Of a DNA stretch of 64,000 nt, positions 3,305-47,354 are shown in pieces (the stretch's first letter is position 1; every line of letters begins with the position of its first letter). The notes beneath the pieces were generated by a model, which saw nothing but the letters and a program-made list of their open reading frames with translations, was not told the DNA's origin and ran no database searches. Both the position numbers and the translations under genes were made by a program. The stretch lies in the NCBI GenBank assembly GCA_949292245.1, contig CASEYV010000001.1:52433-116432 (forward strand), in the 5' to 3' direction. The DNA comes from an uncultured bacterium. Lineage in GTDB: Bacteria; Bacillota_I; Bacilli_A; RF39; UBA660.

Positions 3305-3589
3305 TTATTTTTCAATCATCGTAGCAATAATACCTTGACCGATAAAATCTGCTTTTTTAGGCTTACCATTTTCATAAAAAAGAATTGAAATGTCACCTTC
3401 AGAAGAATTTTTAATATATGTTATTCCGTCATATTTCCAAATAATTTCACCGGTAAATGAATTTACAATAATAATTTCTCGTCTTAATTCACCATAATCA
3501 CTTTGATAATTTTTCTTAGTCATTTCCCATGAATTTCCACAACCAGAAATCATTAAAATACAAAGTAAAATACCCCACAATTTTTTCAT
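3305..3589 (-). CDS. putative lipoprotein / secreted small protein
   Basis: Signal peptide MKKLWGILLCILMISGCGNS followed by a Cys (lipobox-like LMISGC). Confidence 0.45.
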   Translation of the reverse strand: MKKLWGILLCILMISGCGNSWEMTKKNYQSDYGELRREIIIVNSFTGEIIWKYDGITYIKNSSEGDISILFYENGKPKKADFIGQGIIATMIEK

Positions 3590-3891
3590 TTATTTTCTCC
3601 TTTATATAATTTACTAATAACACTATTCATTCTCATCATAGCAGCACTATTTGCTGAATGAACCAATATAATTTTTGGTAATGGAAAATTATTGATATAA
3701 AATTCTTCTTCTAGCCAATCTAAAACTTTATATCCTTCAGCTAATCCTTCACCAAGGTCATTATCTAATGAAAGAAATTCAACATTTCCTTTATTTTTTA
3801 TTAATTGGTCAATTGTTTCTTCAACTGTATATGTACGAATATCATATATAGCTGGTGTTTTTCTACAATCATCTAAATAAATATTAACCAT
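3586..3891 (-). CDS. hypothetical protein, possible stand-alone receiver (CheY-fold)-like domain
   Basis: The 101-aa protein has acidic and polar residues at receiver-like spacings: LDD at 6-8, SLDNDLGEG at about 41-49, VHSANS at about 77-82 and KGE at about 98. Confidence 0.25.
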   Translation of the reverse strand: MVNIYLDDCRKTPAIYDIRTYTVEETIDQLIKNKGNVEFLSLDNDLGEGLAEGYKVLDWLEEEFYINNFPLPKIILVHSANSAAMMRMNSVISKLYKGENK

Positions 3892-3909: not shown

Positions 3910-3987
3910 TGGCATTCCCAGAGGGATTCGAACCCCCACTCTTTTCGTTCGTAGCGAAATGCTTTAGTCCAATTAAGCTATGGGAAC
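3910..3987 (-). tRNA. tRNA-Arg (anticodon ACG), CCA encoded
   Basis: The reverse complement folds as a cloverleaf. Acceptor stem is GTTCCCA/TGGGAAT, D-stem GCTT/AAGC with a GG loop, anticodon stem TTTCG/CGAAA around loop CTACGAA (U33, A37). T-arm is GGGGG TTCGAAT CCCTC, followed by discriminator G and CCA. Confidence 0.85.
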
Positions 3988-8123: not shown

Positions 8124-8152
8124 AAAAAGAGGAGATTTTTCTCCTCTTTTTA
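8124..8152 (-). terminator. rho-independent terminator (aagaggag/ctcctctt) with flanking A/T runs
   Basis: Hairpin immediately downstream (minus sense) of the uvsX stop. Confidence 0.55.
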
Positions 8153-9256
8153 TTCTACTTCTTCATTGGTATCTATGGAAATAACTTTTTCTAATTTTTG
8201 GCTATTTTCCCAATCTTCCCAATCTTTCATAATCATATCATAATCTTCATTAGTAATAGATTTACGATATTTTTTCCAAACCTGTTCATCGTTTTTCAAA
8301 GAATAATAAACACAGTATGAACCTTCTTTCATAATTACTGGTCTATCTTTATATTTTAATGTTTCTGTAAATAGCTCAAATAAACCAGAGTATCTATCTA
8401 ATCCTGAATCCCAAGGAATATTACATTCGGCATCTTGGAATGGTTTTGTATATCTTGTTTTACGACAAACAGCTTTTACTTTAATACCTTTAACATCAGT
8501 AGTTTTAACACCGTTTTCATCTTCTTTTAATTTTGCTTTTTGTAATGCTACAATAATAGATGGTGCATATTCCATCGCTCCACCACCGGCAATAATATCT
8601 TCTGGTTTAAAAATAGATTGTGAAGCATATGTATGGTTTGTCGCTAAAACTCCAATAGGTTGGTCTGAACAAGAAGCTAAGAAATTACGGCATAATGAGA
8701 ATAATTGCTTTGGTTTTTTACCCATATCACCCTTCATTTCACCTTTTTCAAATTGTTCTTGTTCAACAGATGTTGTTGCCATACCCAATGAATCAATTAT
8801 AAATAAAATTTTTGGTCTTTCTTCATACGGAATAGCATCATATGCTTTTTTATATTCTTCAATAAATGATGAAATAATGGCAGCCATATCATCTAATAAT
8901 GAAACAGAAATTCTAACAATTTTTGATTCATCTTCCAAATCTAAACCAAAATTTTCACCCCATTTTTTATCAATAGCATTTTCGGTATCAAGAATAACAA
9001 TTTGAACATTATTATCTTGGCAATATTTTCCCATAACACCAATACTTAATAAACTTTTTCCGGTTCCAGAAGGTCCAACTAATAAATTAAATTTACCATC
9101 TAATGGCATACCTTTATGGAAATCACCTGAAATTATATAATTTAATACATAACTTCCTGTATCAATCCAAAATGATGGGTCACGAAATCCGGATGAAATA
9201 GATGGTAAAGTTTTAGTAATGGATTTTCTGAATTTACTTAAATCCATAGGTTTCAT
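8150..9256 (-). CDS. uvsX: UvsX/RecA-family recombinase
   Basis: Matches T4 UvsX block by block. LLVGPSGTGKS aligns with ILAGPSKSFKS, ILFIIDSLGMATT with VVFIDSLGNLASK, ATNHTYASQSIF with AINHTYETQEMF, and DRYSGLFEL with DPYSGLLDM. Confidence 0.85.
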   Translation of the reverse strand: MKPMDLSKFRKSITKTLPSISSGFRDPSFWIDTGSYVLNYIISGDFHKGMPLDGKFNLLVGPSGTGKSLLSIGVMGKYCQDNNVQIVILDTENAIDKKWGENFGLDLEDESKIVRISVSLLDDMAAIISSFIEEYKKAYDAIPYEERPKILFIIDSLGMATTSVEQEQFEKGEMKGDMGKKPKQLFSLCRNFLASCSDQPIGVLATNHTYASQSIFKPEDIIAGGGAMEYAPSIIVALQKAKLKEDENGVKTTDVKGIKVKAVCRKTRYTKPFQDAECNIPWDSGLDRYSGLFELFTETLKYKDRPVIMKEGSYCVYYSLKNDEQVWKKYRKSITNEDYDMIMKDWEDWENSQKLEKVISIDTNEEVE

Positions 9257-9280
9257 ATAAATCTCCTTATTAATAAATTT

Positions 9281-9308
9281 ATAAAAATAGGGGTGGGTTA
9301 CACCCCTA
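9281..9308 (-). terminator. GC-rich hairpin (taggggtg/caccccta) followed by U-run on the minus transcript
   Basis: 8-bp stem between the SSB-like gene end (9316) and the uvsX start. Confidence 0.5.
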
Positions 9309-9315
9309 TATAATG

Positions 9316-10491
9316 TTAGTTTTGTGGATTAATATTAAATTTATTTAATATATTATTAATAACTGCTTGTGTATCAGTATCAGAAATTGTTTCTGAATTT
9401 TGAGCAATTAACTGTGGAGCAGTCATTTGTTGTTGAGGAGTTGTATTAACCATTTGTTGAATCATATTTTGTAATTCAACAGCTTGTTGTGGATTAAAAT
9501 TCAAATTAGGTTGAACATTATTAACCACAGGTTGTGCCATTGTATTTACATCATTAGCAACATATTGAGTAGTGGTTGGAATTTCAGTTGCTACTGTCGT
9601 AGCATTCTTTCCGCCTTTAACATCTTTAATGTTACCTTGTTCATCAAAGAATACATTATCTGGTTTGAAAATTTTGCCCCAACGAGCTACATCATAAGGT
9701 TCTGAATTATATGATGCTTCGAACAATTCCAACATTACGTTTTCTTGTTCTTTTGTAGGTCTTGATGGAATAAAGTTTTTCAAAACAAATGGTTTATTTT
9801 CACTTAACCATGCTTTTTCAACTTCTGTCAATGGTGATTCATTACTTGACCATTTAGAAGTAGAATAATCTTTAACTTCTTGTGGTTTACCGTTAATATT
9901 AGCAATTTTTTTCGTTACTTTAAGAATAAAATCTCTACCATGTTCCATATCAGATGGTGTATGTTCGATTTCATCATCAGTAATAAATGAATAAATTACA
10001 TTAAACAAATCTTTATTAATTACAAATCTATAAAGTTTTGTTTCGTAACCTTCTGCTCTAATAAATCCTTGAAAAATATATCTTTCTGTTCTTCCAAATT
10101 TATTATATAATTTAGTTCCTTCTTCTGTTCCATCCCATAAAGGTTTAATTTTTTGATTGATTACATCATCAGAACTGTAATACAAATAATCTTCTGGAAG
10201 ATTAGATAAATTAACATCACCCTTTTTGATATTAAATGCTGGAACACTAACAAATGTTCTATTATCCATAATAGTTCCATTTGCCAATTTAATAGAATCA
10301 AATCTTAATGTTCTTGTAGAACGAGTTCTCCAAAAGAAATCATTTGGTTCGCCGTCATCAACGAATCTGATTCTAATTTGGTCTCCAATATTTAATTTTG
10401 AAAATGAAAATATAGATGATGAATCGTAATTTGAATTTGATTTTTGTGATGAGCTAATTTTAGCTCTTAATTCTGCAATAGATAATGCCAT
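9316..10491 (-). CDS. gp32-like single-stranded DNA-binding protein (candidate) with Q/N-rich C-terminal tail
   Basis: N-terminus ALSIAELRAKISSSQKSNSN...GDQIRIRFVDDGE resembles the T4 gp32 N-terminus (TAELAAQMAKLNGNKG...GQAVIRFLP). It sits next to uvsX. The C-terminal 80 aa are low-complexity Q/N-rich. Confidence 0.4.
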   Translation of the reverse strand: MALSIAELRAKISSSQKSNSNYDSSSIFSFSKLNIGDQIRIRFVDDGEPNDFFWRTRSTRTLRFDSIKLANGTIMDNRTFVSVPAFNIKKGDVNLSNLPEDYLYYSSDDVINQKIKPLWDGTEEGTKLYNKFGRTERYIFQGFIRAEGYETKLYRFVINKDLFNVIYSFITDDEIEHTPSDMEHGRDFILKVTKKIANINGKPQEVKDYSTSKWSSNESPLTEVEKAWLSENKPFVLKNFIPSRPTKEQENVMLELFEASYNSEPYDVARWGKIFKPDNVFFDEQGNIKDVKGGKNATTVATEIPTTTQYVANDVNTMAQPVVNNVQPNLNFNPQQAVELQNMIQQMVNTTPQQQMTAPQLIAQNSETISDTDTQAVINNILNKFNINPQN

Positions 10492-10585
10492 TGTGTTCTC
10501 CTTAAATTTGTTTTCAATTAGTTTGTTTTCAATTAGTTTGTTTTCAAAATGTAGTTGGCAACTACATTATATATTTATCAAATAA
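10492..10585 (-). promoter_or_regulatory. 5' leader of the SSB-like gene: a 15-nt tandem repeat (tttgttttcaattag, 2.9 copies at 10507-10549), a perfect palindrome (aatgtagttg g caactacatt, 10548-10568), and an SD AAGGAG
   Basis: Direct reading. The hairpin plus U-run would also terminate the upstream bS21 gene. Confidence 0.4.
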
Positions 10586-10816
10586 TTAGCCAAACATTTC
10601 GGCTTTACGCTGTCTCATACGTTCACGAGAAATAGCTTCTTTCATTTTTCTTCTTCTTTTTTCTGAATTAGATTCAAAAAATCTTTTTAATTTTAATTCT
10701 TTAAGTAATGGAGCTGTCTCATGTCTTAGACGATTTAATGCTTTGTTAATAGCATTTGTATCATTACCTTCAACATAAATGATAGTTCCAGATTTTTTTG
10801 GATTATATTTTTTCAT
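10586..10816 (-). CDS. rpsU: ribosomal protein bS21 homolog (phage-encoded)
   Basis: 76-aa basic protein. IIYVEGNDTNAINKALNRLRHETAPLLKELKLKRFFESNSEKRRRK matches the bS21 consensus (V.V.ENE..EKALRRFKR...K.G.L.E.RRR..YEKPS..RKRK). Confidence 0.75.
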   Translation of the reverse strand: MKKYNPKKSGTIIYVEGNDTNAINKALNRLRHETAPLLKELKLKRFFESNSEKRRRKMKEAISRERMRQRKAEMFG

Positions 10817-10829
10817 TTTCCCTCACTTA

Positions 10830-12047
10830 TTAAAGTTTATTTAATTTATTAAGAACTGATGGAACTTTATAATATAGTTTTTTCAATTCTTCCTTTATTT
10901 TAGGATTCTTTTTAATAAAATCCTTAAAATATTCTGTTTCAATAATAGATTCATTTTCGTCTATTGAATTTATTATTTGATTTAATAATACATCATTTGA
11001 TGTAGTTGTATCAATATTATTTTTATTAATTTTATTTTCAATTTCATCTAATTTTTCAATCAAAACATCATTATTCAATGATTTTTTTATTGTATCAACT
11101 TTTTCAAGTATAGGTGTAAAATCGATAGTTTTATCAGATAATTGTTTTATTATTTGATTATTTTTTTCAATATTTTCTTTTAATTCTTTAATTTGTGTAT
11201 CGTCATTTACTTCAATTATTTTTGATTGATAATTATTTAATATTTTTTTAATTTCATTAATATCTTCATTAGTATAATTATTTTTTGTTTGTATATTAAA
11301 AATAGGTTTATCTTCAATTTTTGAAATCCAATCAGATGTAATCATTAAATACATAGCCAATGTATCAAATACTGTCATAATCATTACAATAAAAATAATT
11401 ACTGCTGTTTCATCATCAACATTAAATAATTTGGCATAATATTTTAAGTGTGCTAATGTTGGAACTTTTTGTTCCATTTCTAATTGTAATTTTGTTATTT
11501 CTTGATTTAATTTTGTTATTTCTTCTCTTTTTTTACGATTATCATCAAATAATCTATTTGTAATTTTTTGCTGTTCTTTTTGAAGATTGACCGCTTTCGT
11601 TACATATCCCATTTCAGTATATTTTAAATATGCTTTATCATCAAATTGATTTAATTGTTCTTCATTCATTTTTATAGAATTGTTTAAAATATCAATTTCT
11701 GATTGTTTTTGTTTTATTACCATTTCAATAGGAATAACTTCTTGTGCTTTAGCAGAATGAGCATTAGCAAAAAATCCATATACACCCATGGCTGATAATG
11801 ACATTGCAATTAATAACATTAATATACCTGGAATTTTTTGATATAATTTTAATTTATCCCAAAAATGATGTAAATCATATAATAATATTACACGACCAAC
11901 TTCAATAACTGTTGCAATACACATTGTTATTAAAGAAGCAGAAGCAAAAACTTTGCCCATACCAATTACGGTACAATATCCTGAAACAATAGATATTATT
12001 AATGAAATTACCATTGTTATTAAAGCTGACCATTTAATTGTTTTCAT
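10830..12047 (-). CDS. membrane protein with 4-5 TM helices and a long coiled-coil
   Basis: The ORF-track start (12086) lies inside the terminator hairpin. The internal ATG at 12047, preceded by GGAG, is the more likely start. TM segments are followed by a heptad-rich region. Confidence 0.45.
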   Translation of the reverse strand: MKTIKWSALITMVISLIISIVSGYCTVIGMGKVFASASLITMCIATVIEVGRVILLYDLHHFWDKLKLYQKIPGILMLLIAMSLSAMGVYGFFANAHSAKAQEVIPIEMVIKQKQSEIDILNNSIKMNEEQLNQFDDKAYLKYTEMGYVTKAVNLQKEQQKITNRLFDDNRKKREEITKLNQEITKLQLEMEQKVPTLAHLKYYAKLFNVDDETAVIIFIVMIMTVFDTLAMYLMITSDWISKIEDKPIFNIQTKNNYTNEDINEIKKILNNYQSKIIEVNDDTQIKELKENIEKNNQIIKQLSDKTIDFTPILEKVDTIKKSLNNDVLIEKLDEIENKINKNNIDTTTSNDVLLNQIINSIDENESIIETEYFKDFIKKNPKIKEELKKLYYKVPSVLNKLNKL

Positions 12048-12065
12048 ATTAACATCTCCAATAAA

Positions 12066-12094
12066 AAACACTTGTGAGTATATCACAAGTGTTT
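12066..12094 (-). terminator. rho-independent terminator (acacttgtga/tcacaagtgt)
   Basis: 10-bp stem with loop gtatat and flanking A/T runs, downstream of fiber gene 12121-13446. Confidence 0.55.
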
Positions 12095-12120
12095 TTATTT
12101 ATACAAAATATTTTTTATAA

Positions 12121-13446
12121 TTAAGCAATAGTAATAATTCCTCTTGCAGATAATGCATCAATTAATGCTTCTAATGAAGTTTTAACTTGAGCAACTTCTT
12201 CTCCTGCTGGTTTAGAAACAGTAGCACTTGCTTTTGTGCCTGTCATAATTTTATCACCACTTGGAATAGCTGTTTTTAAAGCATATTTTCCATCAGCATC
12301 TGTTTTTGTATAAGCATCGGTAATTCCATAACCATTTAAAGTTGTTGATTTATTAGCTTTACCATCTAATGCAGAAGTTGTAGCATAGCCAGATAAACTT
12401 GCTTTTGTTGCATAAGTTGATGTAGCATTAGCTGTTGTTAAATAATCATCTAATGCACTTGTATCGGCTTTATCAGCCAATTCAGATTTTGTTGCATAAG
12501 TTGATGTAGCAGTTTCTGTTGTTACATAAGCACTTAAAGCACTTGGTTGAACAGCTGTATCTGCTTTTGTACCTTGTGCTTTTGTAGCATATTTGCCATC
12601 AGTTTCTGTTTTTGTATATGCATCAGTAATTCCATAACCAGCTAACGTGGTTTCTTTATCTGCTTTGCCATTAAGAGCTGTTTTATCTGCTTTTGCTTCT
12701 AATGCAGAAGTAGTAGCATAGCCAGATAAACTTGCTTTTGTAGCATAAGTTGATGAAGCAGTTTCTGTTGTTACATAAGCACTTAAAGCACTTGTATCTG
12801 CTTTATCAGCTAATTCAGATTTTGTTGCATATGTAGATGAAGCAGCTGTTTTACTTAAATAAGTTGATGTAGCATTAGCTGTTGTTAAATAATCATCTAA
12901 TGTAGCTGGTTGAACAGCCGTATCTGCTTTTGTACCTTGTGCTTTTGTTGCATATTTTCCATCGGCTTCTGTTTTTGTGTATGCATCAGTAATGCCATAA
13001 CCATTTAAAGTTGTTGATTTATTAGCTTTTCCAGATAATGCACTTGTATCAGCTTTATTTGCCAATGCTGAATTCATTGCTTCAGTTGTAGCATAAGCAC
13101 TTAAAGCACTTGGTTGAACAGCTGTATCAGCTTTTGCACCTTGTGCTTTTGTTGCATACTCACCTTTTGCTTGAATTCCTAAATCATCTAATGATTTATT
13201 ACCACTTAATTCAACAGAATTAATTCGTGGTTTTCCTGTTAATGCAGAATAATCAGTAGCTCCACCAGAAGAACCTTCTCCACCAACATATGATAATTCA
13301 CTAAATGAATGTTCACCATCAAAAAGTTTTATTTTATTTGTATCGGTTTCATAAGCAATAACACCTTCTGACATTTTAGGATTTTCAGAAGCCCAATTAC
13401 TACTTGTATCTTGAATAAAATATTTTACATTTAATTTTTTAGACAT
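12121..13446 (-). CDS. tail fiber protein with tandem ~60-aa repeats (GYGITDAYTKTEADGKYATKAQG)
   Basis: N-terminal fiber motif (W..ENP....GVIAYETDTNKIKLFDG) and the INSVELSGNKSLDDLGIQAKGEY module shared with other fiber genes. Three repeats follow. C-terminus LEALIDALSARGIITIA resembles that of the next paralog. Confidence 0.7.
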   Translation of the reverse strand: MSKKLNVKYFIQDTSSNWASENPKMSEGVIAYETDTNKIKLFDGEHSFSELSYVGGEGSSGGATDYSALTGKPRINSVELSGNKSLDDLGIQAKGEYATKAQGAKADTAVQPSALSAYATTEAMNSALANKADTSALSGKANKSTTLNGYGITDAYTKTEADGKYATKAQGTKADTAVQPATLDDYLTTANATSTYLSKTAASSTYATKSELADKADTSALSAYVTTETASSTYATKASLSGYATTSALEAKADKTALNGKADKETTLAGYGITDAYTKTETDGKYATKAQGTKADTAVQPSALSAYVTTETATSTYATKSELADKADTSALDDYLTTANATSTYATKASLSGYATTSALDGKANKSTTLNGYGITDAYTKTDADGKYALKTAIPSGDKIMTGTKASATVSKPAGEEVAQVKTSLEALIDALSARGIITIA

Positions 13447-15013: not shown

Positions 15014-15017
15014 GTCA

Positions 15018-22957: not shown

Positions 22958-23722
22958 TTACTTAATTTTTCTTATACTTGGATTCAAGTTTTTAATATTT
23001 TTATTAAAAATAATATTATATGCTCTATCAATAATTTTACTATATTTTGCAATATTTTTATTATTATGAATAATTCCTTCTTTTAAAGACATATATGAAT
23101 GCTTACCAATTTGAATTGTTAATTGTCTTTTATCAATCCATTTTGGTCTTTTAGAATCATATAGCAATGGTGTTACAACATAATGTTGTAATTTGAATTC
23201 TTTTGCTAATTGTCTATGTATTGGATTATTATATAGTTCTAAAGCCAAACGCTGTGCTTTTTCCCATGCAATTTTTTCACCATACAATTTAACATTTGGC
23301 TTTGGTATAATATTACCATTTGTCCAACAAAATTGCCATCTGTCAAATATAATATTGCAGAGATTATGCTCATTTTTCACCAAAGTTAGAGGATAATTAC
23401 CACTTTCATATCTATTAAAAACAACATATGTAGTAGCAATTTGGTCTTTCACCGATGAACCACGAGCTTCGTGGTACATATTTAAAGCAAGGCATACCAC
23501 ATCTTCCTGCTTATCTTTCCTCAACTTCTTTACTTCGGTTAATATTAAATCTTCTTTTTCAAGAGTATTTAATATTGTTATTTTCTTTTGTGTTTGCAGG
23601 TCACTTATCTGAACATTACTTTCCATTTTTGTTACTGCTTTTGTCTGACTAGCAGATTGAGCGGTATATGAAAAGATACATAAAGATAAAACAACAAACC
23701 CAATAAATTTCAATATTCTCAT
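22958..23722 (-). CDS. secreted cell-wall hydrolase, SleB/Hydrolase_2-like domain
   Basis: Signal peptide MRILKFIGFVVLSLCIFSYTAQSAS. CLALNMYHEARGSSVKDQIATTYVVFNRYESGNYPLTL...QFCW matches the SleB-type motif (IY.EARGE...Q.AVA.VV.NRV.S..FP.T......QFS). Confidence 0.55.
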   Translation of the reverse strand: MRILKFIGFVVLSLCIFSYTAQSASQTKAVTKMESNVQISDLQTQKKITILNTLEKEDLILTEVKKLRKDKQEDVVCLALNMYHEARGSSVKDQIATTYVVFNRYESGNYPLTLVKNEHNLCNIIFDRWQFCWTNGNIIPKPNVKLYGEKIAWEKAQRLALELYNNPIHRQLAKEFKLQHYVVTPLLYDSKRPKWIDKRQLTIQIGKHSYMSLKEGIIHNNKNIAKYSKIIDRAYNIIFNKNIKNLNPSIRKIK

Positions 23723-30588: not shown

Positions 30589-31116
30589 TTATTCAATATT
30601 TATAAGTTTAATTTCTTCTTCTTTTTCTTTTTTATCTTTAAATTCAATAGTCAAAAGACCATTTTCCAATGAAGATTTGACAAATTCTAATGAATCACAC
30701 ATCTTCCATGAATTTTCAAATTCTCTCATTGCGATACCTTTATAGCAATATACTCTTCCTTCACCATCACAAAAAACTCCACTTCCTTCCATAGTAAAAT
30801 CGTCTTTGCCCCTTTTTCCTTTTGAACCTTTAACAGTCAAGACATTAGTTTTTGTATTATATGTTATTTTTAACATATCTTTGGTATATCCAGCACAAGC
30901 TAACTGAATAAAAGTATGAACTTCTTTATGACAATCTGCTTCTTTACCATTGTCATTACAAACATTTACTTCTTCTGTAAAAATACTATATGGTGGGAAA
31001 GTTGTTTCTTTAAAAGAATTACTAAATTTATCTAAATCATCAAAAAAATCTGAAAATCCAATAAGATTACGTTTATTATTAAAGACATCAAAAAATGTCA
31101 TCAAATTATTTGCCAT
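30589..31116 (-). CDS. small heat-shock protein, Hsp20/alpha-crystallin family
   Basis: Alpha-crystallin-like core (ITYNTKTNVLTVKG...REFENSWKMCDSLEFVKSSLENGLLTIEF) and a C-terminal I-x-I motif (LINIE). Confidence 0.6.
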   Translation of the reverse strand: MANNLMTFFDVFNNKRNLIGFSDFFDDLDKFSNSFKETTFPPYSIFTEEVNVCNDNGKEADCHKEVHTFIQLACAGYTKDMLKITYNTKTNVLTVKGSKGKRGKDDFTMEGSGVFCDGEGRVYCYKGIAMREFENSWKMCDSLEFVKSSLENGLLTIEFKDKKEKEEEIKLINIE

Positions 31117-31202: not shown

Positions 31203-32456
31203 TCAATTTTCAATATTATTTGACAAATATTTTATCATTTCTTCGTGATAAATTTCACCAAATTTTTTTCCAGAAAATTTAGAAAGTCTTTCTTGAACTT
31301 TTTCTGGTAAATCTTTTAAAGTTATGCCGTGCATAACATCAAAAATTTTTAACATTCTTTGTTCAATTTTTTGTCTTTCTATTTTTTCTTCATCTGAAAC
31401 TGTTAATGCTCTACCATAACAATCACATCTAGTTACTTCAATGAAATCAATCAATCTTTGACGATTTTTGAAATTTAATGAAATAGCTTTAATCATATCG
31501 TATTGCTTTCTTAGCTTCATTTGATGAAATCTATGAGCATTCATATGATAACGACAAGATATTAAAGCAAAATCACGATATTCATTTGGAATTTTAACTC
31601 TATCACATAATTTTTCAATTACTGATAATCCATTAAATTCATGACCATGATGAGCTGGTAAAATATCTTGTGGAGTTAATGCTTTACCTAAATCATGACA
31701 CAATACAGCAAATTTAACCATTGGAGATAATTGATTCCAATCAGCAACTCGCAAACACAACATTGTATGTTCAAAAGAATTACCTTCTGGATGATATTCC
31801 AATTTTTCTGGAGTATCAATTAAAGCATACAATTCTGGAAGAACAATTTTTAATGCTCCACTTTCTTGGAGATTTCTAATGAATTTTTCTGTTATACAAT
31901 TAGATTGTAATGCTTTTTCAATTTCTTTCCATACTCTTTCTTCTGTTAAGTGTTCAATCATTTTATTTTCAACCATCGTTTGCAATAAATTCATAGTATT
32001 TCTTTCAATATTAAAATCTAATTGAGCTGAAAAACGGCAAGCTCTTAATAATCTTAATGGGTCTTCGATAAAAGTTTCATCACGAACAGCTCGTAATAAT
32101 TTATTTTTTAAATCATCTTGACCATTAAAATAATCAATTACATTTCCATTTTCATCTAATGCCATAGCATTAATTGTAAAATCTCTACGAACTAAATCAT
32201 CTTCCAAAGAAACATCAGATGAAAATTCAAATTCAAAATCAGTATGTTTATCACCAATTTTTCTTTCTTTTCTTGCTAAAGCATATTCTTCGTTTGTTTC
32301 TGGGTGTAAAAACACAGGAAAATCTTTACCTACTTGGTGAAAACCAAGAGATTCCATTTCGGAAATAGAAGAACCAACAACAACATAATCATTATCATGT
32401 GATGTTCTATCTAATAATTTATCTCTAACTGCCCCACCAACTAAATAAGTTTTCAT
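31203..32456 (-). CDS. cca: CCA-adding tRNA nucleotidyltransferase (class II, with HD domain)
   Basis: N-terminal LVGGAVRDKLL, the RRDFTINA-type head domain and an HD motif (CHDLGKALTP, HHGHE). Confidence 0.85.
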   Translation of the reverse strand: MKTYLVGGAVRDKLLDRTSHDNDYVVVGSSISEMESLGFHQVGKDFPVFLHPETNEEYALARKERKIGDKHTDFEFEFSSDVSLEDDLVRRDFTINAMALDENGNVIDYFNGQDDLKNKLLRAVRDETFIEDPLRLLRACRFSAQLDFNIERNTMNLLQTMVENKMIEHLTEERVWKEIEKALQSNCITEKFIRNLQESGALKIVLPELYALIDTPEKLEYHPEGNSFEHTMLCLRVADWNQLSPMVKFAVLCHDLGKALTPQDILPAHHGHEFNGLSVIEKLCDRVKIPNEYRDFALISCRYHMNAHRFHQMKLRKQYDMIKAISLNFKNRQRLIDFIEVTRCDCYGRALTVSDEEKIERQKIEQRMLKIFDVMHGITLKDLPEKVQERLSKFSGKKFGEIYHEEMIKYLSNNIEN

Positions 32457-32772: not shown

Positions 32773-33924
32773 TCAAGCATTTTTAATAAAATCTTCAACC
32801 ATATCGGCTAATTTATCATAAGTTAAATCGCTAATATATTGCATAGCACAATCGTATTTGTTATCGATAGCTTTAAACATATAATTAGAGAACTTACAAT
32901 TTTTTAATATGTATTGAGCTTTATCTTTTCTGCTTTCTAATGAATTGATGTAATCAATATTAGAGTTATATTCATCATCGATTGCGTTAATCAATGAGTG
33001 ATATCCATCTAACATTCTTTGAATATTTAATTTATATTCAGAGAAATAATTTAAGAATTCATCAATTTCATTATTGACAATTAATATCATTGCTTTTTTA
33101 GGAGTTAAAATTCCTTGTCCTTTCAAATGATGCACTGCAACATAAGATGGAGATTTAACTTTAACTCTATTGAAATTTTTATCTACAACGACATATCCTT
33201 CTTCTGTATATGGTAATTCATTTGCTGCCAAAATACATTCATTTAATGATTTAAAACCATATTGTTTTGGAGTTTTAAATATTTTTGCCAAAGGATGGTC
33301 ATAAATTAAAATTTCTTCTAATGATTTGTTATTTCTAACACCAATCAAGCATAAATTAATTCCTTCATAAGGAATAACAACTTTATTATATGGTGAAATT
33401 AATTCAAACATATAAGTATAGTTTTCTTCGAATAAATCTAACCATTTATCTTTTGAAATTGATTTTAATGGTTCAGCATTTTCAATTAATTCCTTATAAT
33501 TAGAATATTTAAAATCTAAATTTTGAGCAACTTCGGCTTTTGAAGCATCGATAGTTCCATTAGTAGAAATCAACAAATCATTACCCAATCTAACTATTTT
33601 AATTAAAGAACCGTCAATTTTTTGAGTAATTTTAGCAGATTTCCAATCTATTTCTGGACAATATGATTCACCATAATTTCCAAATTTGTAGAATGGAACA
33701 GATACTGGTTCTAATGAATCAATATCAATAATCAATCCACGGCATTCTCTAACGATTTCATTATTAAAATCAGAAGAAATTTGGTTATATTTTAATAATG
33801 CTAAATTTCTACCATACATATTATCTTTAGATACAGATATACAATATGGAGATTGAGCTAAATCATCTTCCCAATTTTTATGTGATTTAATATATTCAAT
33901 AACTTTTAACATTTCAATCTCCAT
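32773..33924 (-). CDS. rnlA: RNA ligase 1 (T4 RnlA-like)
   Basis: Motif I TQKIDGSL (KxDG). ECRGLIIDIDS aligns with T4 ECRGIMFEMDG. EGYVVVDKNFNRVKVKSPSYVAVH aligns with [24 protein letters not shown]. Confidence 0.85.
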   Translation of the reverse strand: MEIEMLKVIEYIKSHKNWEDDLAQSPYCISVSKDNMYGRNLALLKYNQISSDFNNEIVRECRGLIIDIDSLEPVSVPFYKFGNYGESYCPEIDWKSAKITQKIDGSLIKIVRLGNDLLISTNGTIDASKAEVAQNLDFKYSNYKELIENAEPLKSISKDKWLDLFEENYTYMFELISPYNKVVIPYEGINLCLIGVRNNKSLEEILIYDHPLAKIFKTPKQYGFKSLNECILAANELPYTEEGYVVVDKNFNRVKVKSPSYVAVHHLKGQGILTPKKAMILIVNNEIDEFLNYFSEYKLNIQRMLDGYHSLINAIDDEYNSNIDYINSLESRKDKAQYILKNCKFSNYMFKAIDNKYDCAMQYISDLTYDKLADMVEDFIKNA

Positions 33925-34250: not shown

Positions 34251-34847
34251 TTATTCTCCCAATATTTTTATTTGCTGATATATAGTTTCTTCAGCTTTTA
34301 AAATCATTTGCTTGTAAATTTTAAACATTATTGAAGAATCATCTTGAAACAATTCTTTCGCTCTCTTAATAAATTCTTCTTTTTCACCAAGATACTTTTT
34401 AGCAAATGAAGAATCTCTTTTAACAATATCATGACAGTTGTCAATAATATCAGCCAATTTAACAATTATAGAATCAATACTACCTTTTAAAGTATGTTCC
34501 ATATCTATCATTTTTCTAATTTTGCGATTTCCATCTTCTGGTTTAGAAATGTTTGTTAAATATTCAACATTTTTACTATAATATTCTCCAAATAAACTTT
34601 CTATTTCTTCCAATGTAGCATCAGTATCTTCAACAGTATCATGTAGATAAGCCAATTCTTCTAAACGATAGATTATATCCAAATCCATAGGTTGAATATC
34701 AGAGCAAATTTTACTAATTATTTTAGCAACACTAATAGGGTGAGTAATATATGATTCACCTGTATATTTTCTTGTTTGACCTTTATGTTTTTCAGTCGCA
34801 TAATCTAATATTTTATCGTGTTTAAAATCTCTATATTCACTACTCAT
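34251..34847 (-). CDS. small alarmone hydrolase, RelA/SpoT-type HD domain (Mesh1/SAH-like)
   Basis: KHKGQTRKYTGESYITHPISVAKII aligns with SpoT HRKGQFRKSGEPYITHPLAVAEIL. AYLHDTVEDTDATLEEIESLFGE aligns with ALLHDVVEDTDVTLEEIEERFGP. IIVKLADIIDNCHDI aligns with ILIKLADRLHNMRTL. Confidence 0.7.
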   Translation of the reverse strand: MSSEYRDFKHDKILDYATEKHKGQTRKYTGESYITHPISVAKIISKICSDIQPMDLDIIYRLEELAYLHDTVEDTDATLEEIESLFGEYYSKNVEYLTNISKPEDGNRKIRKMIDMEHTLKGSIDSIIVKLADIIDNCHDIVKRDSSFAKKYLGEKEEFIKRAKELFQDDSSIMFKIYKQMILKAEETIYQQIKILGE

Positions 34848-35679: not shown

Positions 35680-36177
35680 TTATCTATGTAATTTAATATT
35701 ATATTGTTCACAATCTTTTTTAAACATATCAAATGTTTCATCTTCACCAACTAAAAATAACCAAGAACAAGTATGTTCATTTCTGGTGCAATTAATCATA
35801 CCATAATTATCCATAGTTGCATTATCGCATACTGTAATATCATATTTTTGTTTAGTTTTTGTATCCATTAAATCCAATAATTCTTTTTGAGCTTTAAATG
35901 GATATGTGCTATCCATAATATGACCTTGACACCATTCATCTGTATATTTAAACAAAAGATTCCAAATATCTTTATTTGAACCTTCTAAAACTACTGTCGT
36001 TCCAAAACCTTCACCTTCATTTATCCAATTTTGAAAGTATTGATTATCATTTTTATTATTGGAAGACATAAATTCTTTTACAAATTGAGCTGAAGCATGT
36101 GATGCTTGTGCCATGGCTTTTCCAGCATTCAAAGATGGTAAATCATTTCTCATAAAAATATATAAAACTTGTTTCAT
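35680..36177 (-). CDS. peptidyl-tRNA hydrolase, PTH2 family
   Basis: VLYIFMRNDLPSLNAGKAMAQASHAS matches the PTH2 core [25 protein letters not shown]. Confidence 0.6.
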   Translation of the reverse strand: MKQVLYIFMRNDLPSLNAGKAMAQASHASAQFVKEFMSSNNKNDNQYFQNWINEGEGFGTTVVLEGSNKDIWNLLFKYTDEWCQGHIMDSTYPFKAQKELLDLMDTKTKQKYDITVCDNATMDNYGMINCTRNEHTCSWLFLVGEDETFDMFKKDCEQYNIKLHR

Positions 36178-36231: not shown

Positions 36232-36732
36232 TTATTCGTATGTTTTTTTAAATTTGTGTTTAATTTTTTTAAATACTTTTTCTTGCTCTATTTCTAATCC
36301 AAGTTTTCTATATTCACCAGCTAAATCATCTGCAATATTATTATAGTATGATAATTTGGTTCCATCGTGAATATGACCTTTTATTTGCATAAATTTTACT
36401 TTTTTTCTTGTAAAATCTAAAAAATCATATATATAATTTAGGCAAGATGATTCAAATTCATCTTGCCCTTTATTTCTTTGTGAAATTTTTCTTAACGCAG
36501 TTGCAGAATCAGAAATAATTGTAATTGTTTTATCATCCATTCTATCTACAATTTTATTATTACAAATATATTGAATAGCCATAGCAATTGCAGCAATTTC
36601 CGCTACATTATTATCACGACATTTATTTGTATATGTTCCAAAAGTATGTTCTCTACCTTTATATAAAAGAACCGCACCAAATCCACTCATACGAGGTTTT
36701 AATGAGTGACTTCCATCAGTAAATATAATCAT
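36232..36732 (-). CDS. rnhA: ribonuclease HI
   Basis: IIFTDGSHS...GFGAVL...TNNVAEIAAIAMAI fits the RNase H1 DEDD fold order (TDGS...G.G.V...TNN.AE..A...AL). Confidence 0.7.
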   Translation of the reverse strand: MIIFTDGSHSLKPRMSGFGAVLLYKGREHTFGTYTNKCRDNNVAEIAAIAMAIQYICNNKIVDRMDDKTITIISDSATALRKISQRNKGQDEFESSCLNYIYDFLDFTRKKVKFMQIKGHIHDGTKLSYYNNIADDLAGEYRKLGLEIEQEKVFKKIKHKFKKTYE

Positions 36733-36763: not shown

Positions 36764-37207
36764 TTATTTGTCTAATAATCCTAAAAATTTTTGGATATTT
36801 TTAATTTCATCCGATGTCATTGATTGATATTTTAAATCAAACTCATCATCTGATAAATTTTTATAAAAATTTCTAATTAAATTATAATTTTTATCATTTT
36901 TATTTTTAGATTGAGCTATCCATTGATGTTTAAATGATTTATTTAATCCACAAGTGCATAACAATTTAAATTGTAAATCTTTATATTTTGATAATTCCCA
37001 ATAATGAGTATTAACATTATTATTAACTAATTTTGTTAATTGTATATGTTGTTTTTCTTGTCCATATATTGCCGACATCCAACGACATAATGTATAAGGT
37101 TGAATTTCTTTTTGTTGTTCTGACGATAAAGATTCAAAATATTGATAATTTTTATTATCAATATTTTTTAATACATCAAAAATATCATTTTTATAAGTTT
37201 TAGCCAT
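36764..37207 (-). CDS. hypothetical protein
   Basis: 147-aa ORF. Confidence 0.35.
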   Translation of the reverse strand: MAKTYKNDIFDVLKNIDNKNYQYFESLSSEQQKEIQPYTLCRWMSAIYGQEKQHIQLTKLVNNNVNTHYWELSKYKDLQFKLLCTCGLNKSFKHQWIAQSKNKNDKNYNLIRNFYKNLSDDEFDLKYQSMTSDEIKNIQKFLGLLDK

Positions 37208-37671
37208 TAATTATCTCCATATTTATATAATACACATTTTATTGGAGATTTTGCAAAAATATCTTCAATAATTTTATATACAATATTCCAATCACCACCA
37301 GCTAATCCACAACCTATTTTATAAGGTATAGCCACCGATAAATTATTATATTCGGCATATTCTTTTACTTGATTTAATGATAATTTTAATGATTCATAAT
37401 CCGTTTGTAAACCAGTTCCATATGATAATTGACCAAAACAATTCATAACATATTTTGAATTATCAACATTTACAATTTGAGTATAACCCATTAAACTATT
37501 TGGAAATTTTTTATATAAATCACATAATATTTTATATTTGTCAAAAATTACAGGATATTTTTTTCTTAATTGTAGAGCTAAACCAGCTCCCATTACTCCT
37601 AAACAATTTGTTTGATGGACAATTATATTTTCCGAACAATTTAATATATTACCATTTATAATATCAATCAT
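37207..37671 (-). CDS. macro domain protein (ADP-ribose binding / processing)
   Basis: NIIVHQTNCLGVMGAGLALQL aligns with YmdB VIVNAANPSLMGGGGVDGAI. LSVAIPYKIGCGLAGGDW aligns with TSVAFPAISTGVYGYP. Confidence 0.75.
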   Translation of the reverse strand: MIDIINGNILNCSENIIVHQTNCLGVMGAGLALQLRKKYPVIFDKYKILCDLYKKFPNSLMGYTQIVNVDNSKYVMNCFGQLSYGTGLQTDYESLKLSLNQVKEYAEYNNLSVAIPYKIGCGLAGGDWNIVYKIIEDIFAKSPIKCVLYKYGDN

Positions 37672-45119: not shown

Positions 45120-47354
45120 TTATTCCCCAAAATAAATTTTATTATCTTTTATTTTTAATAATATTTTTCCACCATTTTTATATTTTCCAAAAACAATATC
45201 TTTTGCTATCACATTTTTAATTTCATTAGTTATTATATGTTTCATAGGTCTAGCACCGTTATTGGAATTTTCAACCTTTTTAACGATATAATTTATTATA
45301 TCATCATTATATTCAAAATCAATCATTTTTTTTGACAAAATAGATTTTAATTCGTCCAAAAATTTTATGCAAATTGTTTTTAATACATCTGATGACAAAT
45401 TATTAAAAGTAATAGTTGAATCAATTCTATTTCTAAATTCAGGTAAAAATCTATCTTCATAATCTTGGTCAGATGGTGTATAATCATCATTACCAAAACC
45501 AATTCGTATTTTATGAGAATTATACGAACCGACATTTGATGTCATAATTAAATAAACATGCTCAAATGAAACTGATTTACCAGATGATGAAGTCAATTTA
45601 CCATTATCCATTACTTGTAATAAAACATTATGTATTTTAGAATTAGCTTTTTCAATTTCATCTAATAATAAAATACAAGATGGATGTTCATCAATAGCAT
45701 TAATTAATAAACCATTACCTGATTTACCATCTCCGAAACCTTTATATCCAGGAGGAGCACCTAGTAATTTAGACACACTATGTTCTTCCATATATTCAGA
45801 CATATCAAATCTAACCAATGGAATATTCAAAATTTTTGACAATACTTTACATATTTCTGTTTTACCGACACCAGAAGAACCTTTAAACATCAAAGATATA
45901 GCCGTTTTATTTGTTTCTCTTAATCCAGATTTAGAAATAATAACAGCTTCACTGACTTTTTTTACAGCTTCATCTTGTCCAATAATTTCTTTTTTTATAG
46001 TATTTTCTAAATTTTTATAAATTTCTTCTTCTGATAAAGAAATATTATTTAAAGGTATGCCTAATAATATAGACAATACTTTATAAATCATATCTTCTGA
46101 TATTTCTTTTTCATTGTGATATGTAGCATAAGCTCCGACTGTATCTAAAATATCAATCGCTTTTTCAGGAAAAAACTTATTATAAAAATATCTATTACAA
46201 TAATCCATTATTAAATCAATTATTTTTTCTGAAAAAGTAACATTAAAATTATTTTCATATAATGATTTAATATTCATTATAATATTTTTAGTTTCATCAA
46301 ATGATGGTTCTTTAACAGTAAATTTAAAAAAGTTTTTTACAAAATTGTCATCTTTTTCAATAAACCTACGATAATCTTCATTAGTTGTAATGCCAATAAT
46401 TTTAATTTTACCATCACAAAGCATTGGCTTAAATAATGATGATAAATCATTTTGACTTGAATAATCACCATTTCCACACATAAAATGTATGTCATCAATA
46501 ATTAAAACTACATTTTCTTTTTTATTTAAAATATTATGTAATGTTTTTACTCTATTTTCAATTTCACCTTTAACCATAATATTTGCAGTAAAAGATAAAT
46601 TATCTAATAATAGAAATTCTTTATCAGTATATTTTTCACTGTAAATTTTTGCCAAGCCTTCTACTAACTTAGATTTACCAACACCATGATTACCAACAAG
46701 TATAATATTTGGTTTATCATGTCTTAATAAAATATATTGTAACAACTCTAATTCATCATCACGACCAATTAAAGGTTGCCATTCTTTCCCCTTTACTTTT
46801 TCAGTTAAATTAATTGTATATTGTGATAAAAATAATTGTTCTTTTTTATTTGAAGAACCATCTAATGTTTCATTTATAATTTCTGATACACGATTAGACA
46901 TATTAGATGAATAAGATTGATAAATTTTTGTCAAAAATAATGGACTAACATTATTTGACAATAATATTTTTTGAGAAAAAGTTTCTTCCATAAACAAAAA
47001 AGATGCAATGACATTTGTTATAAATAAAACATCTTTATTTATAACAACATCTTCATTACATTTATGACATAGATTGCAATATCCTAAAAATACCAAAACA
47101 TGTGGAGAAATTTCTATATTATCGCTTGAACTTTCTATATGTTCCATTAAAGGATAATTAGAAATAAAATCTTCTAATTCTTTTGTAATTTTTTTATAAT
47201 CAATTTTATATTTTTTAAATAACTTTAAAAAATGTTCGTCTTTCATAACGACATATAAAACATGTTCCAAATGAACATATTTTGAACTATAATTTTGGGC
47301 CACTTTTTTTGATTCATTAATAAGTTCTTGTAATCTTTCAACAAAATCAATCAT
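45120..47354 (-). CDS. ClpA-like AAA+ unfoldase (Clp_N domain, two AAA modules, IGF ClpP-docking loop)
   Basis: D1 Walker A LVGNHGVGKS and D2 Walker A FKGSSGVGKTE. The sensor is GARPMKHII. KIRIGFGNDD...FRNRID aligns with the ClpA IGL loop RKSIGLIHQDN...FRNRLD. Confidence 0.8.
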   Translation of the reverse strand: MIDFVERLQELINESKKVAQNYSSKYVHLEHVLYVVMKDEHFLKLFKKYKIDYKKITKELEDFISNYPLMEHIESSSDNIEISPHVLVFLGYCNLCHKCNEDVVINKDVLFITNVIASFLFMEETFSQKILLSNNVSPLFLTKIYQSYSSNMSNRVSEIINETLDGSSNKKEQLFLSQYTINLTEKVKGKEWQPLIGRDDELELLQYILLRHDKPNIILVGNHGVGKSKLVEGLAKIYSEKYTDKEFLLLDNLSFTANIMVKGEIENRVKTLHNILNKKENVVLIIDDIHFMCGNGDYSSQNDLSSLFKPMLCDGKIKIIGITTNEDYRRFIEKDDNFVKNFFKFTVKEPSFDETKNIIMNIKSLYENNFNVTFSEKIIDLIMDYCNRYFYNKFFPEKAIDILDTVGAYATYHNEKEISEDMIYKVLSILLGIPLNNISLSEEEIYKNLENTIKKEIIGQDEAVKKVSEAVIISKSGLRETNKTAISLMFKGSSGVGKTEICKVLSKILNIPLVRFDMSEYMEEHSVSKLLGAPPGYKGFGDGKSGNGLLINAIDEHPSCILLLDEIEKANSKIHNVLLQVMDNGKLTSSSGKSVSFEHVYLIMTSNVGSYNSHKIRIGFGNDDYTPSDQDYEDRFLPEFRNRIDSTITFNNLSSDVLKTICIKFLDELKSILSKKMIDFEYNDDIINYIVKKVENSNNGARPMKHIITNEIKNVIAKDIVFGKYKNGGKILLKIKDNKIYFGE

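What the first reader, a model, noticed from the sequence alone, without database searches (positions are those of the whole stretch)
10586..10816. Phage-encoded ribosomal protein bS21
A 76-aa basic protein matches the bS21 consensus and sits between the SSB-like gene and a membrane protein gene. bS21 sits near the mRNA entry/anti-SD region of the 30S subunit, so a phage copy is thought to bias initiation toward phage transcripts. Together with the tRNA, CCA enzyme and Pth2, this phage invests unusually heavily in translation components.
Basis: partly seen in the sequence, partly recalled or inferred. Interest (0 to 1): 0.6.

Follow-up and report, generated by a model that had tools for sequence, protein, structure and literature searches.

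The report
Jumbo-phage copy of ribosomal protein bS21
A small, very basic gene in this AT-rich jumbo phage is a real but diverged copy of bacterial ribosomal protein bS21, a kind of phage gene already reported in over a thousand phage genomes, so it is a solid but ordinary find.

Summary
The ORF is real: 10586..10816, minus strand, 76 aa, pI 10.7. S21 is the top hit in Pfam, NCBIfam, PHROGs and PDB sequences, at E about 1e-5 to 1e-6. This sequence falls 1.7 and 3 bits below the two curated cut-offs. Family-level evidence closes that gap. Ten of 11 relatives hit PF01165 (best 1.4e-11). A family profile hits 35 PDB chains, all bS21. Profile-profile comparison with cellular bS21 gives 99.2% probability (E 1.4e-19). 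Residues 13-66 are 46% identical to a genuine bacterial rpsU.

The gene is under purifying selection (dN/dS 0.13-0.35). It keeps its position (tail-fibre cluster, membrane protein, bS21, gp32-like SSB, UvsX) in relatives on 200-286 kb contigs.

The claimed tRNA-Arg, CCA-adding enzyme and PTH2 are all present, alongside an Rnl1-type RNA ligase, so the set looks as much like tRNA repair as translation takeover.

About 80% of the phage's genes carry Shine-Dalgarno sites. The host therefore reads SD, unlike the Bacteroidota hosts of the best-studied bS21 phages.

Phage bS21, including its basic/aromatic N-terminal extension, is already published. Verdict: supported; a new member of a known kind; modest interest. 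Ribosome incorporation is inferred, not shown.

The parts
10586..10816 (-). CDS of the phage bS21 homologue (76 aa, stop codon included). Residues 1-10 (MKKYNPKKSG) form a clade-specific basic/aromatic N-terminal extension. Residues ~13-72 are the bS21 core.
   Evidence: ORF. S21 hits. Family and profile evidence. Conservation and dN/dS.
10820..10826 (-). Shine-Dalgarno-like GUGAGGG. It lies 3-4 nt before the ATG and only 3 nt after the stop (10830) of the upstream membrane-protein gene, so bS21 is probably co-transcribed, and perhaps translationally coupled, with that gene.
   Evidence: Read directly from the sequence. GUGAGG is kept in relatives L007 and L009. Co-transcription is an inference.
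10550..10566 (-). Perfect 17-nt palindrome TGTAGTTGCCAACTACA followed by UUUUG, 20 nt after the bS21 stop. It is a candidate terminator closing the tail-fibre/membrane/bS21 unit, or an operator or 5'-UTR element of the SSB gene.
   Evidence: Unique in the window. Conserved in L009, and replaced by a different hairpin in L007. Fold z-score is -2.2. A sigma70-like TTGGCT-16-TATAAT overlaps it at 10593..10566. Function not resolved.
10830..12047 (-). Upstream neighbour: a 405-aa membrane/coiled-coil protein of unknown function. The mechanical ORF runs to GTG 12086, but ATG 12047 matches the gene called in relatives.
   Evidence: no family hit. Hydropathy.
9316..10491 (-). Downstream neighbour: gp32-type ssDNA-binding protein, followed by a UvsX-like recombinase at 8150..9256.
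   Evidence: phrog_1192 at 2.7e-24 and phrog_97 at 3.9e-53. RecA Pfam hit.
3910..3987 (-). Context: tRNA-Arg(ACG), the only tRNA in the window, next to a cREC_REC (cyclic-phosphate-processing receiver domain) gene at 3586..3891.
31203..32456 (-). Context: CCA-adding enzyme (PolyA_pol head, RNA-binding and HD domains). An Rnl1-type RNA ligase lies beside it at 32773..33924.
35680..36177 (-). Context: PTH2-type peptidyl-tRNA hydrolase homologue. Only the N-terminal half matches the profile.
   Evidence: E 4.6e-9; 36.9 bits against a cut-off of 23.

Best explanation
The gene encodes a diverged homologue of bacterial small-subunit ribosomal protein bS21, carried by an uncultured AT-rich (~25% GC) T4-superfamily jumbo myovirus of about 270-286 kb.

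Shown: homology to bS21, purifying selection, conserved synteny, a phage genomic setting, and heavy Shine-Dalgarno use by the phage's own genes.

Inferred: the protein is made from the same transcript as the tail-fibre and membrane-protein genes upstream. It exchanges into the host 30S platform next to the 3' end and anti-SD of 16S rRNA, in place of (or alongside) the loosely bound host bS21. There it keeps or tilts translation initiation in the phage's favour. The conserved basic/aromatic N-terminal extension (MKKYNPKKSG) and the altered helix1-helix2 turn are the candidate determinants of competitive binding or mRNA preference.

Because about 80% of the phage's genes carry AGGAG-type sites, the protein must work within SD-dependent initiation. 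That differs from the SD-blind Bacteroidota system proposed for the lake phages.

My estimates: genuine phage-encoded bS21 homologue, ~0.95; binds host ribosomes, ~0.65; confers selective advantage to phage mRNAs rather than simply supplying bS21, ~0.35.
For: - S21 is the best hit in four independent libraries.
- Ten of 11 clade members hit PF01165, best 1.4e-11, and 28 of 31 homologues carry a precomputed PF01165 hit.
- The family profile against PDB gives 35 hits, all bS21, bS21c or bS21m.
- hhalign of the phage family against cellular bS21 gives probability 99.2%, E 1.4e-19 over 62 columns.
- Residues 13-66 are 46% identical to a genuine rpsU in a Nitrospirae MAG, which sits among DEAD-box helicase and LysRS genes.
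- dN/dS is 0.135-0.35.
- Synteny is conserved in relatives at 81% and 75% identity.
- The phage setting is clear: UvsX, gp32-like SSB, baseplate hub and tail fibres.
- SD cores sit upstream of 63 of 79 ORFs, against 8.6% background (p ~5e-52).
- Published precedent: pelagiphage bS21 enters E. coli 70S ribosomes (PMC6375957). Huge-phage rpS21 proteins have basic/aromatic N-terminal extensions (PMC7162821). Phage bS21 is co-expressed with late structural genes (PMC9723584). Francisella bS21 paralogues change which mRNAs are translated (PMC9578407).
Against: - This sequence alone misses the Pfam and NCBIfam curated cut-offs.
- The Gly that is invariant in my small cellular bS21 alignment, at the helix1-helix2 turn, is missing. 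The phage clade has a 2-residue deletion there, with a Pro.
- The AF2 model (pLDDT 80, pTM 0.40) is one continuous helix and gave no Foldseek match, so structure adds nothing.
- No ribosome binding, expression timing or host is known for this phage.
- In the one experimental case, ribosomes carrying phage bS21 had about 5% activity in a heterologous system. Stimulation of translation is therefore unproven anywhere.
- The gene is not next to the capsid or prohead-protease genes, as it is in many published cases.
Confidence: 0.6

Rival explanations
1. Plain supply, with no selectivity. bS21 is small, loosely bound and exchangeable. The phage copy tops up or replaces the pool when host gene expression is shut off or host bS21 becomes limiting, keeping 30S subunits able to initiate late in infection without favouring phage mRNAs.
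For: The core that contacts 16S rRNA is conserved (KAL..L.H....LLKELK.KRFFE...EKRRRK). Phage genes use ordinary SD sites like any host gene. Mizuno et al. note that viruses tend to encode dynamic, exchangeable ribosomal proteins.
Against: The clade-specific, strictly conserved N-terminal extension (Y4, N5, K7 invariant) and the altered turn suggest more than simple replacement. A 280-kb lytic phage with a short infection cycle may not outlast host bS21.
Confidence: 0.2
2. Dominant-negative shut-off. The protein occupies the bS21 site and disables or restricts host ribosomes, contributing to host translation shut-off or needing a further phage factor to become active.
For: E. coli ribosomes carrying pelagiphage bS21 had about 5% of wild-type in vitro activity (PMC6375957). 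The phage protein lacks the conserved turn Gly.
Against: The phage itself depends on the same ribosomes. The 5% result may only reflect heterologous incompatibility, as its authors say. The gene is linked to late-type structural genes rather than early takeover genes.
Confidence: 0.1
3. Extraribosomal RNA-binding role. The S21 fold has been co-opted as a small basic RNA- or DNA-binding protein, for example a regulator acting on the conserved palindrome and repeat leader of the adjacent SSB gene, or a virion-packaged protein.
For: bS21 has a reported non-ribosomal partnership in the OLE RNP (title and abstract of PMC12054373). A conserved palindrome and 15-nt repeats lie directly downstream of the gene. 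Chen et al. raise possible packaging into virions.
Against: There is no direct evidence. The most conserved residues are those of the rRNA-binding bS21 core. The parsimonious precedent is ribosome incorporation.
Confidence: 0.07
4. Not a gene, or a chance similarity of a lysine/arginine-rich ORF in AT-rich DNA.
For: Single-sequence scores are below the curated thresholds. Basic low-complexity peptides can give spurious hits.
Against: dN/dS is well below 1. Length and position are conserved across relatives down to 59% identity. hhalign E is 1.4e-19. All 35 PDB profile hits are bS21.
Confidence: 0.01

Closest known systems
Huge-phage rpS21 proteins with N-terminal extensions (Al-Shayeb et al. 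2020, PMC7162821)
   Same: Both are encoded by phages over 200 kb, together with tRNA, CCA-adding and tRNA-ligation genes. [quoted passage not shown] The proposed role is the same: substitution for the host protein and preferential initiation.
   Different: I could not test whether this clade is among those already catalogued. It is very diverged from cellular bS21: only 17 proteins in 1.8 billion representatives reach E of 1e-3 or better. It also has a 2-residue deletion at the helix1-helix2 turn.
bS21 of Bacteroidetes-infecting freshwater phages (Chen et al. 2022, PMC9723584)
   Same: Both are large phages (up to 331 kb there). In both the gene is conserved in position, linked to structural genes and strongly conserved. 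The hypothesis is the same: substitution into host ribosomes during late replication.
   Different: Those phages infect SD-blind Bacteroidota. Their bS21 most resembles Flavobacteriia bS21 and keeps the Tyr54-type aromatic residue that blocks the anti-SD; the gene sits by TerL, MCP and prohead protease. Here 80% of genes have SD sites, and the gene sits between the tail-fibre cluster and the SSB/UvsX genes. No close cellular donor is evident.
Pelagibacter phage HTVC008M bS21 (Mizuno et al. 2019, PMC6375957)
   Same: Both are T4-like myoviruses of an AT-rich host, with a lytic-type genome. This is the only phage bS21 shown experimentally to enter 70S ribosomes.
   Different: The HTVC008M protein is 54% identical to its host's bS21 and was clearly acquired recently. 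The present protein gave no tblastn match to any of 50,697 deposited phage genomes, even at E 10 (the low-complexity filter may contribute). Its best confirmed cellular match is 46% over the core only.
Cellular bS21 (RpsU; Pfam PF01165, TIGR00030)
   Same: Size, charge and the core motif pattern match (V.V..N.....KAL..LK......L.KE.K.R.F/Y.E..S.KR.RK), and there is a C-terminal aromatic residue as in E. coli ...RLY.
   Different: The phage protein has an extra 10-residue N-terminus, H32 where cellular proteins have R/K, and loss of the turn Gly. FESNS replaces YEKPS. It scores below the curated thresholds.
Francisella tularensis bS21 paralogues (Trautmann & Ramsey 2022, PMC9578407)
   Same: This is a working model only: alternative bS21 proteins give heterogeneous ribosomes that change which mRNAs are translated, without transcript changes.
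   Different: Those are chromosomal paralogues of a bacterium, not phage genes. No relationship beyond family membership is implied.

Membership tests
bS21 / Ribosomal_S21 (PF01165, TIGR00030) | Statistically significant sequence homology to bS21, with bS21 as the only family supported | tested here: met
   Single sequence: Pfam 1.3e-5, NCBIfam 5.9e-6, PHROG S21 4.7e-6, PDB bS21c 4.6e-5. Family profile against PDB: 35 of 35 hits are bS21. hhalign against cellular bS21: 99.2%, E 1.4e-19. BLASTP against a genuine rpsU: 46% identity over 54 residues.
bS21 / Ribosomal_S21 (PF01165, TIGR00030) | Operational criterion: the single sequence reaches the curated gathering or trusted score | tested here: not met
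   25.3 bits against 27 (Pfam) and 26.0 against 28.95 (TIGR00030). This is an annotation threshold, not a biological feature. Ten of 11 clade members match PF01165 at E of 0.01 or better (best 1.4e-11), and 28 of 31 homologues carry a precomputed PF01165 hit.
bS21 / Ribosomal_S21 (PF01165, TIGR00030) | Small (about 55-90 aa), strongly basic protein | tested here: met
   76 aa, 22 K/R against 9 D/E, pI 10.7.
bS21 / Ribosomal_S21 (PF01165, TIGR00030) | Conserved core residues of cellular bS21 | tested here: inconclusive
   My 8-sequence cellular alignment has three invariant columns (Ala, Gly, Glu). The phage clade keeps Ala26 and Glu48 but lacks the turn Gly, having a 2-residue deletion and a Pro. 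The KRRRK basic stretch is retained.
bS21 / Ribosomal_S21 (PF01165, TIGR00030) | Two-helix architecture as seen on the 30S subunit | tested here: inconclusive
   AF2 (pLDDT 80, pTM 0.40) predicts a short N-terminal beta-hairpin and one continuous helix over residues 20-75. Foldseek against PDB gave no match. An isolated model of a protein that folds on rRNA is not informative.
bS21 / Ribosomal_S21 (PF01165, TIGR00030) | Physically part of the 30S platform next to the 3' end of 16S rRNA | not testable with these tools
   Needs ribosome purification with mass spectrometry, or cryo-EM, from infected or expressing cells.
Phage-encoded bS21 (Mizuno 2019; Al-Shayeb 2020; Chen 2022) | Encoded within a bona fide phage genome | tested here: met
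   UvsX-like recombinase, gp32-like SSB, baseplate hub/lysozyme, tail-fibre and virion proteins. The nearest cultured relatives by UvsX are jumbo myoviruses at 41-47% identity. The identical gene lies on 200-286 kb contigs.
Phage-encoded bS21 (Mizuno 2019; Al-Shayeb 2020; Chen 2022) | Under purifying selection | tested here: met
   Nei-Gojobori dN/dS of 0.135, 0.19 and 0.35 among three diverged copies. For comparison, mean pN/pS is 0.10 in PMC6375957.
Phage-encoded bS21 (Mizuno 2019; Al-Shayeb 2020; Chen 2022) | [quoted passage not shown] | tested here: met
   Residues 1-10 (MKKYNPKKSG) precede the start of cellular bS21 in the alignment. Y4, N5 and K7 are invariant across 21 clade members. 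The feature is described in PMC7162821.
Phage-encoded bS21 (Mizuno 2019; Al-Shayeb 2020; Chen 2022) | Linked to and co-expressed with late structural genes (Chen 2022 subset) | tested here: inconclusive
   The gene lies 13 nt downstream of a membrane-protein gene that follows a tail-fibre (Mtd_N) cluster, and a hairpin follows it. It is not near MCP, protease or TerL, and no expression data exist.
Phage-encoded bS21 (Mizuno 2019; Al-Shayeb 2020; Chen 2022) | Bacteroidota host with SD-independent initiation (Chen 2022 subset only) | tested here: not met
   63 of 79 ORFs have an SD core 4-20 nt upstream, against 8.6% background. The phage therefore does not belong to that subset, and the anti-SD-sequestration rationale does not transfer.

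The most novel reading that the evidence does not exclude
This diverged bS21 clade has a strictly conserved basic/aromatic N-terminal arm and a remodelled helix-helix turn, and sits in a phage whose genes all rely on strong Shine-Dalgarno sites. It might be a true specificity factor that reprogrammes SD-dependent 30S subunits toward phage leaders, or protects them from a host translation-targeting defence. Alternatively it may have left the ribosome to act on the conserved palindrome and repeat leader of the neighbouring SSB gene. Either outcome would be the first mechanistic role assigned to a viral ribosomal protein.
Probability: 0.15. Interest if true: 0.6.

Novelty: new member of a known kind. 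Interest (0 to 1): 0.3.

Why it matters
Virus-encoded ribosomal proteins are one of the few cases where a virus supplies a piece of the ribosome itself. bS21 is the commonest of them: 88% of viral ribosomal-protein detections and 1,310 genomes in PMC6375957. No in-infection function has yet been shown for any of them.

This copy adds a well-conserved, highly diverged clade from AT-rich, SD-using jumbo phages. It is a useful contrast to the Bacteroidota-phage clade, where the proposed logic depends on SD-blind ribosomes. It does not change the picture, though, and with no cultured host it does not make the open question more testable than existing examples do.

Tried and rejected
- Megablast of 8000-14000 against 50,697 phage records found no match.
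- tblastn of the 76-aa protein against the same collection found nothing at E 0.01 or at E 10. The low-complexity filter probably masks much of this K/R-rich query, so the absence is weak evidence.
With A2 it returned one confirmed locus, a Nitrospirae rpsU, so no host clue came from it.
- IMG/VR gave three related contigs (59-226 kb) but no host or ecosystem information through this tool.
- An Rfam scan of 9000-12500 gave only two sub-threshold chance hits, mir-92 and a snoRNA.
- The region around UvsX in the nearest cultured relative, Sinorhizobium phage Phosso, has no annotated small gene between the protein upstream of RecA (unnamed there) and its upstream neighbour. The bS21 insertion is therefore specific to this clade.
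- I considered that the ORF was a chance basic peptide and rejected it on conservation and dN/dS.
- I considered a Bacteroidota host, as in Chen 2022, and rejected it on SD usage.
- I could not decode the ENA sample names (BRZ_FA, BRZ_S, ONAT22-1), so environment and host remain unknown.

Full report
**Observation.** The window has an ATG-to-TAA ORF of 76 codons at exactly 10586..10816 on the minus strand. Nothing of 30 aa or more competes with it on either strand. The product, MKKYNPKKSGTIIYVEGNDTNAINKALNRLRHETAPLLKELKLKRFFESNSEKRRRKMKEAISRERMRQRKAEMFG, has 22 K/R against 9 D/E, a pI of 10.7 and a mass of 9.1 kDa. The description of the neighbours is correct. The next gene downstream (9316..10491) matches the phage ssDNA-binding protein family phrog_1192 (E 2.7e-24) and is followed by a UvsX-like recombinase (phrog_97, 3.9e-53). 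The gene upstream (10830..12086) probably starts at ATG 12047, as in relatives. It has at least four hydrophobic segments and no family match.

- Ribosomal_S21 is the top hit in Pfam (E 1.3e-5, 25.3 bits), NCBIfam TIGR00030 (5.9e-6, 26.0 bits) and PHROGs phrog_21469 'ribosomal protein S21' (4.7e-6).
- By phmmer against PDB sequences, the top hit is chloroplast bS21c (4.6e-5), followed by bacterial and mitochondrial bS21.
- The two curated cut-offs (27 and 28.95 bits) are narrowly missed, so I sought evidence at the family level.
- The 5.8-billion-protein search returned 31 homologues at 59-100% identity, 28 of which carry a precomputed PF01165 hit.
- The exhaustive search of 1.84 billion representatives found only 17 proteins at E of 1e-3 or better. 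This is a small, isolated clade.
- Ten of 11 clade members hit PF01165 on their own, the best at 1.4e-11.
- A profile of the clade hits 35 PDB sequences, every one a bS21.
- Profile-profile comparison with an alignment of cellular bS21 gives 99.2% probability and E 1.4e-19 over 62 columns.
- Residues 13-66 are 46% identical to the rpsU of a Nitrospirae MAG, which lies among a DEAD-box helicase and lysyl-tRNA synthetase.

Homology is therefore secure. The structure route added nothing. AF2 (pLDDT 80, pTM 0.40) gives a short N-terminal hairpin plus one long helix, and Foldseek found no match.

**What is different about it?** Four features separate the clade from cellular bS21.
- It has a 10-residue N-terminal extension, MKKYNPKKSG, with Y4, N5 and K7 invariant in 21 sequences.
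- It has a two-residue deletion at the helix1-helix2 turn. This removes the Gly that is invariant in my small cellular alignment and leaves a Pro.
- It has His32 where cellular proteins have Arg or Lys.
- It has FESNS in place of YEKPS.

The basic KRRRK stretch and a C-terminal aromatic residue are kept. A basic/aromatic N-terminal extension is exactly what Al-Shayeb et al. reported for rpS21 of huge phages (PMC7162821).

**Is it a functional gene, and whose?**
- Three diverged copies give dN/dS of 0.135, 0.19 and 0.35.
- The order tail-fibre (Mtd_N) genes, ~405-447-aa membrane protein, bS21, SSB, UvsX is kept in relatives whose bS21 is 81% and 75% identical.
- The identical protein occurs on 59 contigs, the longest 285 kb. 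Close variants occur on contigs of 200-286 kb.
- The window also encodes a baseplate hub/lysozyme, virion proteins and a Lon-like protease.
- By UvsX, its nearest cultured relatives are jumbo myoviruses (Phosso, Atu_ph07, GAP32, CBB, XaC1) at only 41-47% identity.
- No deposited phage genome matches at the DNA level.
- In Phosso, no small gene is annotated upstream of the unnamed protein next to the recombinase. The insertion is therefore specific to this clade.

**Expression context (inference).**
- The bS21 start lies 13 nt after the stop of the membrane-protein gene. Its GUGAGGG Shine-Dalgarno-like site sits unusually close to the ATG, at 3-4 nt, and is conserved in relatives.
- Twenty nucleotides after the bS21 stop there is a perfect 17-nt palindrome followed by UUUUG. 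It is unique in the window and conserved in the 75% relative.
- A sigma70-like TTGGCT-16-TATAAT overlaps it.
- I read this as bS21 closing the tail-fibre/membrane-protein transcription unit, with the SSB/UvsX genes starting afresh. That would fit the late, structural-gene-linked expression found by Chen et al. (PMC9723584). No expression data exist, and the palindrome could equally be an operator.

**Host type.** Of 79 ORFs, 63 have an AGGA/GGAG/GAGG/AAGG core 4-20 nt upstream and 46 have a five-base match. The background rates on the coding strand of this 25% GC sequence are 8.6% and 4.3% (p about 5e-52 and 5e-42). The host therefore uses SD/anti-SD pairing. This separates the phage from the lake phages of Chen et al. 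Their predicted hosts are Bacteroidota, whose ribosomes sequester the anti-SD with the help of bS21. I could not identify the host or the environment.

**The 'translation investment' claim.**
- All three named companions are real: tRNA-Arg(ACG), a CCA-adding enzyme and a PTH2 homologue.
- The CCA enzyme lies beside an Rnl1-type RNA ligase.
- The tRNA lies beside a cyclic-phosphate-processing receiver-domain protein.
- HD, Macro and ART-PolyVal genes are nearby.
- This looks at least as much like tRNA repair and counter-defence as translational takeover. The whole repertoire is described as typical of huge phages. 'Unusually heavily' is not supported.

**Mechanism.** The best-supported reading is the published one. 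The protein exchanges into the 30S platform next to the 3' end of 16S rRNA and maintains or biases initiation during late protein production. Three precedents bear on this.
- Pelagiphage HTVC008M bS21 enters E. coli 70S ribosomes, though those ribosomes were only about 5% active (PMC6375957).
- Francisella bS21 paralogues alter the proteome post-transcriptionally (PMC9578407).
- bS21 contacts the anti-SD region.

Rival readings are plain supply without selectivity, dominant-negative shut-off, and an extraribosomal RNA-binding role. None can be excluded computationally.

**Novelty and verdict.** Phage-encoded bS21 is the commonest viral ribosomal protein: 88% of detections and 1,310 genomes. 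It has been analysed in huge phages and in a dedicated study. This is a new, diverged member from an SD-using, AT-rich jumbo-phage lineage. It is real, conserved and correctly interpreted, but of a known kind. Interest 0.3.

Noticed in passing
window 10492-10585 (minus strand), compared with L009 8216-8340 and L007 8228-8310: The leader of the gp32-like SSB gene has a perfect 17-nt palindrome (10550-10566), then 2.6 tandem copies of GAAAACAAACTAATT (10516-10545 and beyond) just before a strong AAGGAG site. The palindrome and repeats are conserved in a relative whose bS21 is only 75% identical. Another relative has a different hairpin plus AGAAAAGC repeats. This could be a translational operator for SSB autoregulation, as in T4 gene 32, or a terminator or operator.
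   Followed up: partly
window 31203-37671, and 3586-3987: An apparent tRNA-repair and counter-defence cluster: CCA-adding enzyme (31203..32456), Rnl1-type RNA ligase (32773..33924), HD_4 phosphohydrolase (34251..34847), PTH2 homologue with only the N-terminal half matching (35680..36177), RNase H (36232..36732) and a Macro domain (37207..37671). Separately, a cREC_REC cyclic-phosphate-processing receiver domain lies next to tRNA-Arg(ACG).
   Followed up: partly
window 12121-22612; L003 2873-3964: A run of about seven tail-fibre-like genes shares a ~100-nt module near the 5' (N-terminal) end (repeat family D6) and many internal 60-270-nt repeats. Several carry the Mtd_N (major tropism determinant) domain. 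This block varies in gene content between otherwise near-identical relatives, and one relative has a reverse transcriptase (RVT_1) gene there, suggesting a diversity-generating retroelement or cassette shuffling of receptor-binding proteins.
   Followed up: partly
window 28877-30493: A 538-aa protein with an ART-PolyVal ADP-ribosyltransferase domain (E 2.5e-17), on the opposite strand to most genes. An Hsp20 homologue lies nearby at 30589..31116, and a Lon-like ATP-dependent protease at 45120..47354 (phrog_4871, E 3.7e-194).
   Followed up: no
window 5442-6924 and 63347-63940; L009 12032-14920; L010 8531-11949: There are two adjacent N6/N4 DNA methyltransferase genes here, plus a C5-methylase fragment at the window's end. 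Relatives carry four or five tandem methylases, and one has an inserted LlaMI/MvaI-type restriction endonuclease. This is a variable anti-restriction or RM island.
   Followed up: no
window 10830-12086: The mechanical ORF starts at GTG 12086 with no SD. The ATG at 12047 (MKTIKW...) matches the 405-aa gene called in relatives and is the likely true start.
   Followed up: yes
window 38694-40664: The baseplate hub protein is fused to a C-terminal endolysin/peptidase domain (phrog_13211 at 1.3e-54 plus phrog_894 at 3.9e-37). A SleB-type cell-wall hydrolase lies at 22958..23722. These might help narrow the host's envelope type.
   Followed up: no
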